Positions 9,270-14,000 of a stretch of 64,000 nucleotides of DNA are shown here, in pieces. Positions within the stretch are counted from its first letter, which is position 1; the number at the start of each line of letters is the position of its first letter. Under the pieces are notes generated by a model. It saw nothing but the letters and a program-made list of their open reading frames with translations. It was not told the DNA's origin and ran no database searches. The translations under genes were made by a program, and so were the position numbers. This stretch comes from the human T2T-CHM13v2.0 reference genome, Homo sapiens, in NCBI RefSeq assembly GCF_009914755.1, contig NC_060940.1, one strand, 5' to 3'.

Positions 9270-12200
9270 CACAGGGAGACGCCTGGATCCATACTCCATC
9301 CAGGCTTCATCTGCAGAGACCAGGGGTGGACACCTCGTTTGTGGGGGCCGTCACAGCTGATGCCCCAGCTCAGGATGTCCACCAGAAACCAGGAGTCACC
9401 ATCCTCTTAAGGGTGGTGCCTGTCCTCCAGAGAGCATATCACTGGGTTCAAACCCCAGCTCCTACCGGCAAAGCCCGGGGCCTCCACCTGGGTGTTCCCA
9501 TCCATGAAGCGGGGATACACAGTGTGGAGCCCTTGGGAGGTTGGGGAGTGTGCCTGCCCTCACCGCGCATCAGCTCATAAATACAACAACAGTTGCCTTC
9601 ACGTGCTGATGCTCAGTGAGCAGTGGCGCAGTTCCCCAGCTGGCGCAGTCAGTGGTGTCTGTCTGCTGTCAGAGGTCACCTGGACCCAGCACGAGTCCTT
9701 GCCCCTAGAGGGAGTCTCCACACACCCCACGACGCTGTCCTCCCTGTGGGATAACTACACGAGGAGATGGCAGGCCATCGTATCATTCAGTGCAGCGATA
9801 CCTCCTGTGGTGGGAATGGGGTCAGGAGGGATTTTCCCGGAGCAGGGCCACTCGCTGGCCTAGCCTGGGGTCTCCACTTTTGGAAGTGTGGTCTTGTGGG
9901 GTCCAGGTTCTCCTTAAGGGCCTTTACAAGGAATGGGAGCGTCCAGTGGTGGAGAGGAGCTGGCTGGCTGCGCCTGCTACCCACACGGGAATGTCCTCCT
10001 GGGCTCCTCTCTTCAACTGGCCTTCACCTCTCCGCCTCACAGATTTCACTCGGAGAATCCGCCTTGCAGCCTGTCTTCTGCTCCCTCCCATCTACCTTTT
10101 GTTTTTTTTTGAGACGGAGTCTTACCCTGTCTCCCAGGCTGGAGTGCAATGGCGTGATCTTGGCTCACTGCAGCCTCTGCCTCCTGGATTCTCCTGCCTC
10201 AGCCTCCCGAGTATCTGGGATTACAGGCATGCACCACCATGCCTGGCTGTTTTTTTGTATATTTAGTAGAGACGGGGTTTCACCACGTTGGCTAGGCTAG
10301 TCTCGAACCCCTGAGCTTGTGATCCACCTGCCTCAGCCTCCCAAAATGCTGAGATTACAGGCGTGAGCCACCACGCCCAGCGTCTGTCTACCTTTTATTC
10401 CCATCACTCCCCACCCCAGACAGGGTGTTGTGTTATGATGGGGAAGGCCCTTGTGTCTTTTGGGTGTGTTAGACCTGGGAAACAATCTGTCTTCTCCTTT
10501 CACGTGCCCCAAAGCAGGACTCCAATCTTCCCCGGGCCTTTCTGATTGGGAGTCTTAAGACCCTCCCCAGAGAGGGCCCCACCCTGTTCCCTGGGAAAGG
10601 AATGCTGACAAAACCCTACAGGACGGTTTGGAGACAGGGTTAGTTCAACTCGTGTGTGTCCCCAGAGGGTGACACCACAGGGATGAATGGGAGCTCCAGG
10701 CCCCTCCCCAGCACCTCAACCTGCACATTGCTTCATCTGGATCCTTTGTAACATCCTTTATAATAAACCAGTGAAGGTGTTTCTCTGAGTTCTGTGCATC
10801 GCTCTAACAAATTAATTGACCCCAAAGAGGAGAGTCATGGGAACGCTAACCTGAAGCCAGTCAGTCAGACGTTCCGGAGCCCAAACTTGCGATTGGGGAA
10901 TGGGGAGGCAGTCCTGTGAGCCCCCACCTGTGGGACCTGAGGCTGGCGCTGGGCAGATAGTGTTGGAATTGAGTTGAGGACACCCTGCTGGTGTCCAGTG
11001 CTTAGTGTGTGGGGGAAAAAAACCCACAACTGTTGGTCACAGGAGTCTTCTGTGTTGATGATTGTGGTTTTGGTGTGAGAGTGTTAGGGACCTCTGCTTA
11101 CCAGGCCTCTGGTTTAATAAAACAACCAGAGTGACTCCATCTTAAAATGTGTAGCTAAGCACTCACAAGGCATCTATAAGGTTCATGCTGTCTGAAAATA
11201 GCCACATTCTTTTTGTTTTTGAGACAGGGTCTCCTTCTGTCACCCAGACCAGAGTGCAGTAGCCTGATACTGGCTCAAATAATCCTCCCACCTCAGCCCC
11301 TGGAGTAACTGGGACTACAGGCATGCACCACCACATCCGGCTAATTTTTGTAGTTTTTGTAGAGATGGGGTTCCACCATGTTGCCCAGGCTGGTCTCAAA
11401 CAGCTCAAGCAATCCTCCTGCCTCAGCCTCCCAAAGTGCTGGGACTACAGGCATGAGCCCCTACACCCAGTCTAAAATAGCCACATCTTAAGCTGGCCAC
11501 CAATTAGGATTACAAAATGTTTATGGCCATACAGGACTTCTCCCAGAAGGCCCATAGAATGTCCACACGTTCTGAGAATGCAGCCCACTTTACTAAGATA
11601 GTGTCAGTAAGCAGGCTAAGACAGAGGATGCACGGTCACCGATGGCATCAATAGCCCCGACCTTTAGTGAGCACATATCTGCACGTTCCAGGTTTATTTA
11701 CTGCTCCTTGTAGTTTCTCTCTCTCTCTCTCTCTTTTTTTTTTTTTTTTTTTGAGACAAAGTCTCACTCTGTTGCCCAGGCTGGAGTACAATGGTGTGAT
11801 CTGGGCTCACTGCAACCTCCGCCTCCCGAGTTCAAGTGATTCTCCTGTCTCAGCTTCCTGAGTAGCTGGGATTACAGGTGCGTGCCACCACACCTGGCTA
11901 ATTTTTGTATTTTTAGTAGAAACGGGATTTTACCATGTTGGCCAGCCTGGTCTCGAACTCCTGACCTCAGGTGATCCACCCTCCTCGGCTTCCCAAAGTG
12001 CTGGGATTACAGGCGTGAGCCACTGAGCCCGGCCTGTAGTTTCTTATAAGCAGAGACACTAACCAAAGACGTTGAGTTCTTCCTCCTGCTCTCTGAGCAC
12101 GCCTGCTCTGTGATGGAGTCCTTTCTAATCAACTTGCTTCTCTCACTGTGCTCTGTGGCTCACCTTGAATTCCTTCCTGTGTGAGATCCAAGAACCCTCT

Positions 12201-14000
12201 CTTGGAACCCTGTCTTGGGGTCTGGATTGGGACCCTCTTTTCTGGCAACAAGAGTAGAGGAAAAACACAATTTGAGAGAGATTTTCCCTACACACAGATC
12301 TTGCTCTGTAGCCCAGGCTGGAGTGCAGTGGCGTGATCTTTATGGCAGCCTTGAAATCCTGAGTTCAGGCGATCCCACCTCACCCTCCCGAGTAACTGAG
12401 ACTGCAGGCACGGGCCACCATGCCTGGCTAATGTAATTTTTTGTAGAGATGGGGGTTTCACTATGTTGCCCAGGCTGGTCTCGATTTTCTGGCTTCAAGC
12501 AATCATCCTGCCTTGGTCTACCAAAACACTGGGATTACAAGCATCAACCACTGTGCCTGGTCTACTTCTTTTGTTTTTGTGTTAATACGTAGTAGTTATT
12601 CACGACCATGCGTTAGTAATGTGCCTTATTTGTAAGAGTGTTTTATAGCTACTTTTGTCCCCATAAGGGATGTGACATAACTGTTAGGAGTGTGGGATTT
12701 GAGTTCAAATCTGTCTCCACTACTTACCAGCTGTGGGCCTGTGGCCAAGTTACCTAACCTCTCTGGGCCTGTTTCCCCTTCTGTGAGATGAGAAGAGTAT
12801 CTCCTTCAAGGGCTCTGAGGTCTGCTGAGAGCATGTACATGCCTGGCACAGTGCACATACTCAGCGGGCATAACGACCACCTTGGCCGACATCTGGACCC
12901 CCAACAGCCACGGGAGTGCAGGTGTTATCAGTGCAGATTACGGAGAGGGAAGTAGGCCCCATCCTGTGGAGGTCAGTTGCACGGGGCTGACAAGAGCTGC
13001 CACTCGTCTGGCCCCACAGGCCATCATGCCGGGAACGGGCCAAGAGGACGGGTGCGGGGAGGCTGCCCTTTTGGGGGTGGGAGGGAGTGGAGAGAGTGGA
13101 GGACCTCTGCTTTTCCCAGAATCAGACCACCTGGGCTGGAGTCCCAGTCTACCAACCTTGCCGGCGGTGTGACTTTTGGGACTTGTTTTTCTCATCTGAC
13201 AAATGGGGACAAGCCACCTCACGGAGCCTCCTGTGGGAATTCAATGAGCTGATGGAATAAAGCCCTCCCTCTGCACAGTGTCTGGTGAGGGCTTGACGAG
13301 GGGCCGTGATTTCTTCTCATTAATGATCCTCCCTTCCCTGCCCGGCTCCACTCCCTTCTGCCTCCTTAGCTGGGCCTGCAGCCTTTTGCAGGCTCGCCTG
13401 CCATAGCCATGCCCTGTCGTCCTGGGCACCTGGTGCCTGATGACCACACCAGTGGTGGCCAAGCTGTACTGCAGCATGGTCTGTTCTCCACCTGGGGGAC
13501 AGAGAAGCCTTGAGCACCCTCCCTGCCCCACCTGGCCTGGCCCAGCCGTGACCATCTAGTACAGCCCACTTCCCTGGCTCCCCAGGAGGAAAGGGGAGGG
13601 AGGCGATGCTCAGGCCTGTGCCTGGACCTAAAGGGGCTGCGCCTTTGAAGTTTACCTTCCCTTATCTTCCCTTCCCTTCTGCTGATAGCCCCTGTCAGCT
13701 CCAGAGTAGGTTTTGAATTTTCCAGGTTTTGTTTCTTTTCCTTCTGCAGCTGTGGAAACTGACCTCTATCTATTGGAACGGGTGGTCCTGGCTCTGGAGA
13801 CAAGGACATGGCAGAGAGGGGACAGGATGCCAGGCACCAGGCTGGAAGGGGACCCCAAGGGTGGGCAAGGACCTGCACGTGGGCTAGCTGTTGGCGTCTG
13901 GGTGCAGGTGTCAGTAGGGTGGCCTGGGCCCCAGGCTCACCCTGGGAGTGAATGGTGGCCAGACACAATGAGAACAGAATCTGGGCCTGCCCCGGGACTC
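9270..14000 (-). pseudogene. Decayed tryptase-family (S1A) serine protease pseudogene relic
   Basis: Ordered minus-strand exon relics: signal-like exon ending 13941; 30-nt exon 13793-13764; WLWQASLQ 13409-13386; PFPPQEV...GKDSCW|gt 9835-9686; WFLVDILSWGISCDGPHKRGVH 9391-9326. Contains frameshifts and stops. Confidence 0.75.
10420..12295 (+). mobile_element. MER21-like LTR containing a nested MER41-like ERV1 solo LTR (about 11082-12250), itself carrying two Alus
   Basis: Inner element TG...CA with 4-bp TSD AGAG and an end ...GGGTCTGGATTGGGACCCTCTTTTCTGGCAACA; Alus about 11208-11472 and 11715-12034. Confidence 0.65.

What the first reader, a model, noticed from the sequence alone, without database searches (positions are those of the whole stretch)
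9270..14000. Hidden fourth protease gene: decayed multi-exon tryptase-family relic between ELOB and PRSS33
Seen, on the minus strand and in the same order as PRSS33/41/21 exons: (a) hydrophobic QILFSLCLATIHSQ-G ending at a phase-1 donor CAGG|GTGAGC (13941); (b) a 30-nt micro-exon 13793-13764 (tgtctccag|...|gtcagt, EPGPPVPIDR), versus 33/27/27-nt equivalents in the intact paralogs; (c) an exon from cccccag|13491 reading in frame to VIRHQ and, after a 1-nt slip, AQDDRAWLWQASLQ (cf. IVGGQDA...WPWQASLQ); (d) 9835-9686 [23 protein letters not shown]...VGC...GKDSCW|gt (cf. LPxPxxLQEV...DACQ); (e) 9391-9326 WFLVDILSWGISCDGPHKRGVH then LVSADEAWM (cf. WxLVGIVSWGxGCxxPxxPGVY). A possible TCTGGAGGA (SGG) lies at about 9432-9424 and a possible exon-4 end (TG.....SPS..|gtgagg) near 10040. 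The middle is occupied by Alu/MER21/MER41-like insertions. Inference: a lost tandem S1A protease with an Asp189 (trypsin-like) pocket. I am not aware of an annotation here, but cannot check.
Basis: partly seen in the sequence, partly recalled or inferred. Interest (0 to 1): 0.85.

Follow-up and report, generated by a model that had tools for sequence, protein, structure and literature searches.

The report
Ancient dead protease gene beside PRSS33
Between ELOB and PRSS33 lies the badly decayed remains of one more trypsin-like protease gene of the chromosome 16 PRSS cluster, an ordinary old pseudogene whose tail end was also copied to chromosome 4 long ago.

Summary
Three of the five lettered segments exceed chance.

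- **Last exon (e, core 9394-9326):** it matches the last exons of PRSS33/41/21 as protein (E 0.002-0.004) and as DNA (nhmmer E 8e-9). It also finds trypsin-type proteases across the PDB.
- **Penultimate exon (d, 9835-9686):** it aligns to the testisin/PRSS41 exon and ends at the same phase-0 GT boundary after "KD.C".
- **Exon 3 (c):** it keeps WLWQASL (nhmmer E 9e-4), then GGSLM and ALT.HC, including the His57 codon.
- **No support from similarity:** the signal exon (a), the micro-exon (b), the "SGG" site and the exon-4 end near 10040.

Window 10091-12560 is a nest of four Alus and two LTR-like repeats.

New here: an old DNA-level copy of window 7669 to about 12790 lies on chr4. It covers the ELOB upstream flank, exons d and e, and a MIR-like repeat. 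It is 67-78% identical, is the only other copy in the genome, and reads more protease-like in places.

Both copies have decayed about equally, and no close intact relative was found in three protein-database searches. I read this as an ancient unprocessed pseudogene, absent from the RefSeq table supplied. It is real but ordinary, and of low to moderate interest.

The parts
9269..9441 (-). Relic of the last coding exon. The core 9394-9326 reads SWFLVDILSWGISCDGPHKRGVH (Ser214-Trp215-Gly216 region, Cys220, PGVY-like). After a 1-nt shift it reads LVSADEAWM (about 9323-9297). The 5' limit is uncertain: either 9441 after 'cccag', with TCT GGA GGA at 9431-9423, or about 9489 with GGGPGLC at 9488-9468.
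   Evidence: (nhmmer 9405-9269, E 8.2e-9). The 5' part is not significant.
9686..9835 (-). Relic of the penultimate coding exon. It reads ...[37 protein letters not shown]|gt, with one TAG stop, Asp189 kept, and an end at the same phase-0 boundary as the paralogs. The acceptor is no longer AG.
13275..13491 (-). Relic of exon 3 (activation peptide to His57). It holds CGHQ (13448-13437), GAQDDRAWLWQASLQ (13430-13386), GGSLM (13332-13318), APRQALT (13304-13284) and HC (13280-13275). It carries about 60 extra nt relative to the paralogs, and the R-IVGG activation motif is lost.
   Evidence: (E 9.1e-4)
12942..13067 (-). Candidate remnant of exon 4, weakly supported. A pyrimidine tract and AG precede 13067. 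PSSWPV (13051-13034), VSPVQL (12991-12974) and TGWGLLPSP (12967-12941) lie in one open frame, followed by GTAATC. The Asp102 region is absent.
   Evidence: 13, 3 and 1 of 100 shuffles at jump costs 12, 16, 20; 14 of 500 against PRSS33, 30 of 500 against PRSS41, 58 of 500 against PRSS21
13941..14010 (-). It is a hydrophobic stretch ending at CAGG|GTGAGC, with no ATG in its frame and no similarity above chance.
13764..13793 (-). It is flanked by AG and GT and its length is a multiple of 3, but it has no similarity above chance.
10091..12560 (.). Nested later insertions that split the former intron. Alu-like elements lie at about 10101-10386 (flanked by the direct repeat AAAAGGTAGA), 11207-11470, 11709-12055 and 12300-12560. 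One LTR-like repeat lies at 10460-11083. A second LTR-like repeat lies in pieces, of which 11471-11708 and 12056-12299 were searched and 11084-11206 is inferred. None of this is present in the chr4 copy.
   Evidence: 1166 candidate copies; the two pieces lie adjacent in other copies
12660..12830 (.). MIR-like old repeat in the former intron 4. It is shared with the chr4 copy, so it is older than the duplication. The family name is from my own reading of the sequence.
   Evidence: 39 non-self matches, all within window 12680-12812
7669..10030 (.). The main part of the stretch that has a collinear old copy on chr4 (T2T chr4, about 168,248,356-168,251,319). It holds the ELOB upstream flank, the 3' flank of the relic, exons e and d, and 195 nt upstream of d. 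An Alu at 8814-9099 is absent in chr4. The homology resumes at 12605-12707 beyond the insertion block.

Best explanation
This is an ancient, unprocessed (intron-containing) pseudogene of a trypsin-like S1A serine protease. It arose as one more tandem member of the 16p13.3 PRSS cluster, lying directly downstream of PRSS33 on the same strand. It no longer encodes anything.

What survives:
- Exon 3: Cys-Gly, WLWQASL, GGSL, ALT.HC.
- Exon 5: ...LNDT..C..GKDSC.
- Exon 6: SWFLVDILSWGISC..GVH..W.
- Perhaps a shortened exon 4.

What is broken or missing:
- The reading frame is broken by a TAG and by indels.
- The exon-5 acceptor and the activation motif are gone.
- The Asp102 region is missing.

Order of events, inferred:
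1. A MIR-like element inserted into intron 4.
2. A roughly 2.4-kb piece (ELOB upstream flank, exons 5-6, part of intron 4) was copied at the DNA level to chr4.
3. Two LTR-like elements, and then Alus, filled intron 4.

The chr16 and chr4 copies have drifted about equally from the paralogs. The gene was therefore probably dead at about the time of that duplication or before it.

Shown: the homology of three exons, their order and strand, the repeat content and the chr4 copy. Inferred: that a complete gene once existed, the order of events and the old age.
For: Exon 6:
- tblastn E 0.002-0.004 against the three window paralogs and blastn E 5e-5 to the PRSS33 last exon.
- nhmmer E 8.2e-9.
- DNA hits to the last exons of 6 of 6 cluster genes tested (PRSS22, 33, 30P, 41, 27, 21), E 3e-7 to 7e-3.
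- PDB: 59 of the 60 listed hits are trypsin-type proteases.
- Genome-wide, 13 matches: the relic itself, the chr4 copy, the last exons of PRSS33/41/21, and eight other places that I take to be S1 loci.

Exon 5:
- z 6.8 against PRSS21; 5 of 200 and 0 of 200 shuffles.
- In the DNA alignment it shares the gap pattern of PRSS21/41 and ends at ...GAC TCG TGC TGG|GT opposite the paralogs' donors.

Exon 3: nhmmer E 9.1e-4; shuffles 0 of 300, 0 of 300 and 4 of 300.

Order and strand: 13491, then 9835, then 9441, all on the minus strand, with 244 nt between exons 5 and 6, like PRSS33's 199-203-nt introns.

The stretches carrying exons d and e occur in only two places in the genome, so they are not repeat-derived.

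The chr4 copy is collinear over window 7669-10030 and 12605-12707, with K2P 0.25-0.45. Its exon 5 is an open frame of 78 codons, and its exon 6 reads ...CGIPNKPG, closer to the family consensus.

Relative rate: the chr16 copy keeps the paralog-majority base at 22 sites and the chr4 copy at 16.

The insertions are absent from chr4 and are multi-copy repeats.
Against: - Pfam found no family in any of the 5 fragments tested. The chr4 exon-5 peptide found nothing in the PDB.
- tblastn with the three paralogs did not list exon 5 at E<5. In the family-HMM scan, exon 3 and exon 5 were only sub-threshold (i-E 3.6 and 5.2).
- No start codon, signal peptide, micro-exon, Asp102 or unambiguous GDSGG could be shown. 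It is therefore unproven that the locus ever held a complete gene.
- Exon 4 is weak (1-13 of 100 shuffles).
- Dating rests on divergence alone, without an outgroup species.
- I could not consult GENCODE, Dfam or any other mammalian genome.
Confidence: 0.85

Rival explanations
1. This is a partial duplicate that was never a whole gene. Only some exons of a neighbouring protease gene were copied into this interval, so no fourth gene ever functioned here.
For: No support for a start codon, signal exon or micro-exon. The Asp102 region was not found and exon 4 is weak.
Against: Relics of exon 3 and of exons 5-6 lie in the right order and on the right strand. Once the later insertions are removed, they span a distance typical of a compact PRSS33-like gene. 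The relic is not close to any one neighbour: its last exon is about equally distant from all six cluster genes. That fits an old independent member better than a recent fragment copy. Signal and propeptide exons are too short and variable to detect after this much decay.
Confidence: 0.08
2. Two unrelated relics lie side by side: a 5' piece (exon 3, perhaps exon 4, at 13.5-12.9 kb) and a 3' piece (exons 5-6 at 9.8-9.3 kb), from different duplication events.
For: The chr4 copy holds only the 3' piece and ends inside the MIR-like repeat. Weak N-terminal-like strings occur near the 3' piece: chr4 reads GPCG..R.VGG at E 0.09 in a 3-kb target, and the window reads ACGARRVAALVS at E 1.7.
Against: Those extra strings are at noise level. 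A single gene explains the order, the strand and the spacing. The chr4 boundary may simply be the end of the duplicated segment.
Confidence: 0.05
3. The protease-like strings are chance resemblance in GC-rich intergenic DNA.
For: Loose collinear chaining gives high scores on control sequence too: 295 for the true strand against 266 for the plus strand and 210-223 for reversed sequence. Segments a and b, the SGG site and the 10040 site are at chance level.
Against: nhmmer E 8.2e-9 for exon 6 and 9.1e-4 for exon 3. PDB hits are almost only S1 proteases at the homologous position. The chr4 copy matches the family independently (E 6.6e-6; 6.3e-5).
Confidence: 0.01
4. The protease relic is real, and the DNA now works as a regulatory element for ELOB or PRSS33. 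This does not exclude the main explanation.
For: The supplied RefSeq table lists enhancer features at 8471-9405 and 9406-10339, which overlap exons 5-6. A 32-nt run in the SWG core is identical between chr16 and chr4, against a 67-78% background.
Against: Nothing tested here bears on regulatory activity. Divergence in exons d and e (K2P 0.25-0.33) is only slightly below that of the flanks (0.31-0.45). By my rough estimate a 32-nt identical run is not rare over about 2,300 aligned bases.
Confidence: 0.1

Closest known systems
PRSS33 (serine protease 33, EOS), the adjacent gene at window 14168-18494
   Same: Same strand and tandem position. Compact architecture with roughly 200-nt introns. Second-best DNA match to the relic's last exon (E 5e-5; E 9e-7, behind PRSS22 at 3e-7). 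The exon boundaries fall at the same codons.
   Different: PRSS33 is intact. Its penultimate exon carries two extra blocks that the relic lacks. Protein similarity in exon 5 is at chance level (z 0.1-0.2).
PRSS21 (testisin) and PRSS41, in the same window
   Same: The relic's exon 5 aligns best to these (z 6.8 against PRSS21). The best hits among 120 retrieved proteins are testisin-type, E 0.001-0.006. It shares their gap pattern and the LNNT/LNDT site. WLWQASL is 20 of 22 nt identical to PRSS41 exon 3.
   Different: They are intact, lie on the opposite strand, have long introns and carry a hydrophobic C-terminal tail. No such tail is recognisable in the relic (C-terminal frames).
PRSS30P, an annotated transcribed pseudogene of the same cluster about 56 kb away
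   Same: It is a disabled member of the same tandem family. Its last exon matches the relic at the DNA level (E 1e-4), and its CGH...GGQD...WPWQ stretch parallels the relic's CGHQ..GAQDD..WLWQ.
   Different: PRSS30P is far better preserved and is annotated. The relic is fragmentary and absent from the RefSeq table supplied.
The chr4 copy (T2T chr4, about 168.248-168.251 Mb), found here
   Same: It has a common origin with window 7669 to about 12790: collinear, 67-78% identical, and the only other copy in the genome.
   Different: It lacks exon 3 and everything upstream, lacks window 9439-9384, and carries its own Alus. Its exon 5 is still an open frame.

Membership tests
S1A chymotrypsin/trypsin-fold serine protease (Pfam PF00089 Trypsin) | Match to the Pfam Trypsin model above its gathering score | tested here: not met
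   0 of 5 fragments (21-60 aa) matched any Pfam family at E<=10. The fragments are too short and decayed. A home-made family HMM of 28 sequences hits exon 6 at i-E 3.7e-4 (chr16) and 6.3e-5 (chr4).
S1A chymotrypsin/trypsin-fold serine protease (Pfam PF00089 Trypsin) | Ser214-Trp215-Gly216 strand, Cys220 and the PGVY turn in the last exon | tested here: met
   DILSWGISC...GVH aligns to (V/I)VSWGxxC..PGVY of PRSS33/41/21 and of solved proteases such as TMPRSS11E (E 0.0036).
S1A chymotrypsin/trypsin-fold serine protease (Pfam PF00089 Trypsin) | Catalytic His57 in the TAAHC motif | tested here: inconclusive
   APRQALT + HC at 13304-13275 aligns to (W)VLTAAHC with one codon missing. 0 of 300 (jump cost 8) and 4 of 300 (jump cost 12) shuffles reach the chain score.
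S1A chymotrypsin/trypsin-fold serine protease (Pfam PF00089 Trypsin) | Catalytic Asp102 (DIALL-type motif) | tested here: not met
   No such motif is in the candidate exon 4 or elsewhere in the unique sequence between exons 3 and 5.
S1A chymotrypsin/trypsin-fold serine protease (Pfam PF00089 Trypsin) | Catalytic Ser195 in GDSGGP | tested here: inconclusive
   There are two candidate sites: D-M-L-S-G-G at 9440-9423 and GGGPGLC at 9488-9468. Neither exceeds chance; 38-230 of 300 shuffles reach the score.
S1A chymotrypsin/trypsin-fold serine protease (Pfam PF00089 Trypsin) | Asp189 at the base of the S1 pocket (trypsin-like specificity) | tested here: met
   GKD-SC (chr16) and GKD-LH (chr4) align to GxKDAC of the paralogs in the DNA alignment.
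16p13.3 PRSS/tryptase tandem cluster | Shared exon-intron structure: a phase-0 boundary after KDxC(x), and a last exon starting at GDSGG | tested here: met
   Relic exon 5 ends ...TGC TGG|GT opposite ...TGC CAG|GT...TGC AAA|GT and ...TGC TTC|GT. The start of the last exon is ambiguous.
16p13.3 PRSS/tryptase tandem cluster | Location inside the cluster and DNA-level similarity to cluster members | tested here: met
   It lies between ELOB and PRSS33 on the PRSS33 strand. The last exon matches 6 of 6 cluster genes tested.
Functional protein-coding gene | Open reading frame with start, intact splice sites and no premature stop | tested here: not met
   There is a TAG in exon 5 and frame changes in exon 6. 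No AG remains at the exon-5 acceptor in either copy. There is no in-frame ATG.
Processed (retrotransposed) pseudogene | Exons joined without introns, a poly(A) tail, and a location away from the parent | tested here: not met
   Exons 5 and 6 are 244 nt apart with intron-like sequence that is itself conserved in the chr4 copy. The relic sits in tandem inside the parent cluster.

The most novel reading that the evidence does not exclude
The relic is the human remnant of a distinct cluster member that still survives intact in some non-primate mammals. That would make it a lineage-specific protease gene loss. The chr4 copy would then be a dated 'snapshot' of the gene from before or around its death.
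Probability: 0.1. Interest if true: 0.45.

Novelty: new member of a known kind. Interest (0 to 1): 0.28.

Why it matters
It adds one dead member to the count of the 16p13.3 PRSS/tryptase cluster, which matters a little for reconstructing how that cluster grew and shrank. The chr4 copy is a second, independently decaying witness of the same ancestral sequence. It can be used to date the loss once other mammalian genomes are compared. There is no sign of present-day coding function. Pseudogene fossils are expected in tandem protease clusters, so the practical weight is small.

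Tried and rejected
1. Loose collinear chaining of a 3-paralog profile over 7600-14167 gave 295 on the true strand. 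Controls gave 266 (plus strand) and 210-223 (reversed sequence). The method does not discriminate at low jump cost, and several of its hits (TGWGPL at 10587-10570, CRV at 10641-10612) fall in a multi-copy LTR-like repeat. I rejected them.
2. However, it lies in the stretch shared with chr4, where the motif is not kept, and it has no statistical support. Not adopted.
3. I first read a frameshift shared by both copies between 'LQEV' and 'IALN' from the 4-nt gap. I withdrew this. With an exon start at 9834, the 149-nt exon is in phase in one frame, and that frame is open in chr4.
4. Searches for a living ortholog:
   - Alignment of both exon-5 copies against longer proteins: 194 candidates, none at E<=10.
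   - Exon-6 alignment: 30 candidates, none at E<=10.
   - The chr4 exon-5 peptide against 1.84 billion representatives: 3 hits, 0 of 3 with a trypsin domain, all repetitive proteins.
   - The tool texts say that finding none is weak evidence.
5. A genome-wide search with the chr4 exon-5 peptide found only the two copies at E<0.1.
6. tblastn of 120 retrieved proteins against the whole window (E<=0.01) gave 19 HSPs outside the spans of PRSS33, PRSS41 and PRSS21. Sixteen of them are at the relic's last exon.
7. Literature: five full-text searches found no description of a protease relic between ELOB/TCEB2 and PRSS33.
   - PRSS33, pseudogene, tryptase.
   - tryptase locus, 16p13.3, pseudogene, Prss32.
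   - Prss32, Prss33, Prss41, Prss30.
   - testisin, pseudogene, 16p13, Tessp.
   - PRSS33, TCEB2, ELOB, PRSS41.
   - A sixth search for marapsin 2, tryptase 5 and pancreasin also gave nothing relevant.
   - Passages seen in PMC6774566 list the genes of a deletion, with nothing between TCEB2 and PRSS33.
   - The most relevant paper is Reimer, Samollow and Hellman, Immunogenetics 2010. I found it only as a reference in PMC4646688, and it is not held.

Full report
**Observation**

- the hydrophobic stretch ending at CAGG|GTGAGC after 13941;
- a 30-nt unit at 13793-13764 flanked by AG and GT;
- a strong acceptor before 13491;
- AQDDRAWLWQASLQ at 13430-13386;
- the 9835-9686 stretch ending GKDSCW|gt;
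- WFLVDILSWGISCDGPHKRGVH at 9391-9326.

TCTGGAGGA lies at 9431-9423.

**Which parts exceed chance: the last exon (e)**

I built the three intact paralogs of the window from the annotated exons. Segment e is the strongest.
- tblastn gives E 0.002-0.004 with all three paralogs in a 6.7-kb target.
- blastn gives E 5e-5 to the PRSS33 last exon, 0.019 to PRSS41 and 0.37 to PRSS21.
- A DNA profile of the three last exons hits 9405-9269 at E 8.2e-9.
- The 27-residue peptide alone finds 104 PDB sequences at E<=10. Of the 60 listed, 59 are trypsin-type proteases matched at the homologous position, the best being TMPRSS11E at E 0.0036.
- In the whole human assembly the peptide gives 13 matches: the relic itself, the chr4 copy described below, and the last exons of PRSS33, PRSS41 and PRSS21 (identified by coordinates). 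The other eight lie on chr4 at about 71 Mb, on chr11 and on chr22. From memory I take these to be TMPRSS loci; I did not check.

**Which parts exceed chance: exon 3 (c) and exon 5 (d)**

Segment c is supported at the DNA level. The exon-3 profile hits 13415-13387 at E 9.1e-4, and WLWQASL is 20 of 22 nt identical to PRSS41.

A frameshift-tolerant profile chain gives CGHQ, GAQDDR and WLWQASL, with 0 of 300 dinucleotide shuffles reaching the score. Further 3' it gives GGSLM, APRQALT and HC, which holds the His57 codon. There, 0 of 300 shuffles reach the score at jump cost 8 and 4 of 300 at jump cost 12. The R-IVGG activation motif is gone either way.

Segment d scores z 6.8 against PRSS21 (0 of 300 shuffles) at the right residues, but only z 0.2-0.8 against PRSS33 and PRSS41. 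In a test confined to the 600 nt upstream of e, 5 of 200 shuffles reach the chr16 score and 0 of 200 the chr4 score. In a five-sequence DNA alignment, the relic shares the gap pattern of PRSS21/41 and ends ...GAC TCG TGC TGG|GT exactly opposite the paralogs' phase-0 donors. This places an Asp at position 189.

**Against the reading**
- tblastn did not list d at E<5.
- Pfam matched none of 5 fragments.
- The chr4 d peptide found nothing in the PDB.
- A 28-sequence family HMM found c and d only below threshold, at i-E 3.6 and 5.2, though at the correct model positions.

**Parts without support**
- Segments a and b have protein z between -1.2 and 0.8. As DNA they score at shuffle level: 94-228 of 300 shuffles for (a) and 85-280 of 300 for (b). 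The frame of a has no ATG between 14100 and 13941.
- These exons are short and variable in the family, so this neither shows nor excludes them.
- The start of the last exon is ambiguous.

**Exon 4**
- A better candidate lies at 13067-12942. It has a pyrimidine tract and AG, then PSSWPV, VSPVQL and TGWGLLPSP in one open frame, then GTAATC.
- This candidate is still weak: 13, 3 and 1 of 100 shuffles at three jump costs, and 14 of 500 shuffles against PRSS33.
- It would be about 150 nt shorter than the paralogs' exon and has no Asp102 motif.

**The middle of the interval**

Window 10460-11083 is a repeat with 1166 candidate copies in the genome. Windows 11471-11708 and 12056-12299 are two halves of another repeat, and they lie adjacent in other copies. 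Alu-like elements sit at about 10101-10386 (flanked by the direct repeat AAAAGGTAGA), 11207-11470, 11709-12055 and 12300-12560. A MIR-like element covers about 12660-12830 (the family name is my own reading). I could not name the families.

The stretches carrying exons d and e have exactly one other copy in the T2T assembly, on chr4. The two loci are collinear over these blocks:

| Window | Content |
|---|---|
| 7669-8813 | ELOB upstream flank |
| 9104-9383, 9444-9548, 9655-10030 | 3' flank, exons e and d, and sequence upstream of d |
| 12605-12707 | Resumes beyond the insertion block, reaching into the MIR-like repeat |

- Identity is 67-78% and K2P 0.25-0.45.
- ELOB itself is not copied.
- None of the Alus or LTR-like elements is shared.
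- This is therefore an old DNA-level duplication of roughly 2.4 kb of ancestral sequence. It is younger than the MIR and older than the LTR-like and Alu insertions.
- The chr4 copy reads ...IIALNNTMPCCHLL...VGCAETPSGGKD... in an open frame of 78 codons, and ...VDILSWGISCGIPNKPG. In places this is closer to the family consensus than chr16.
- It lacks window 9439-9384.
- At sites where the two copies differ and the three paralogs have a majority base, chr16 keeps that base 22 times and chr4 16 times.
- There is thus no sign that the chr16 gene stayed under constraint after the duplication. The gene probably died around that time or earlier.

**Affinities**

The last exon matches all six cluster genes tested at the DNA level: PRSS22 at 3e-7, PRSS33 at 9e-7, PRSS30P at 1e-4, PRSS41 at 3e-4, PRSS27 at 2e-3 and PRSS21 at 7e-3. 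It has no clear nearest neighbour. Exon 5 looks testisin/PRSS41-like, while the short introns look PRSS33-like.

No living close relative turned up:
- the exon-5 alignment query gave 194 candidates, none at E<=10;
- the exon-6 query gave 30 candidates, none at E<=10;
- the exhaustive search of 1.84 billion representatives gave 3 hits, none with a trypsin domain.

The first of the three protein searches showed that the database does hold mammalian PRSS33, PRSS41 and testisin proteins. These negative results are still weak evidence for so short and decayed a query.

**Verdict**

This is a real, ancient, unprocessed pseudogene of an S1A protease. It is a dead tandem member of the 16p13.3 PRSS cluster, absent from the supplied RefSeq table and not found in six full-text searches. 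I could not check GENCODE, Dfam or other mammals, and the key comparative paper on this locus is not held. The finding is correct in substance and ordinary in kind. The chr4 copy is the most useful new fact because it offers a way to date the loss.

Noticed in passing
proteins P0013, P0014, P0016, P0017, P0020, P0022, P0046, P0057 (no window coordinates): Gene models named 'serine protease 33', 'serine protease 53' or 'polyserase-2-like' in manatee, reindeer, cattle, goat, sheep, hyena and grey whale fuse two parts. A testisin/PRSS41-like domain, or part of one (about 50-67% identical to human PRSS21/41), sits N-terminal to a PRSS33 domain (79-85% identical). This suggests a same-strand testisin-like gene just upstream of PRSS33 in those species. 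In human, PRSS41 lies on the opposite strand.
   Followed up: partly
proteins P0049 (Sigmodon) and P0109 (Cricetulus): Rodent models fuse an unidentified protease domain (about 46% identical to PRSS33, 41-44% to PRSS21/41) upstream of a testisin domain. This may be a rodent cluster member with no intact human counterpart. tblastn of all 120 proteins found no relic of it between PRSS41 and PRSS21 in the window at E<=0.01.
   Followed up: partly
window 9352-9383: A 32-nt run in the SWG-encoding core is identical between the chr16 relic and the chr4 copy, against a background of 67-78% identity. By my rough estimate this is not clearly beyond chance.
   Followed up: no
window 35268-35978: Database protein P0072 (237 aa, no name) is 96.6% identical to a single uninterrupted reading of this stretch, which runs from PRSS41 intron sequence through its last exon. 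It is probably an unspliced-ORF prediction.
   Followed up: no
window 7669-8813: The ELOB promoter-proximal upstream flank is part of the old chr4 duplicate (67.6% identity over 821 aligned bases), although ELOB itself is not. The supplied table lists an enhancer at 7684-7823.
   Followed up: no
window 62292-62654: The C-terminal 120 residues of the Sigmodon fused model P0049 match ZG16B coding sequence (E 1.8e-6). This is another sign that this model merges neighbouring genes.
   Followed up: no
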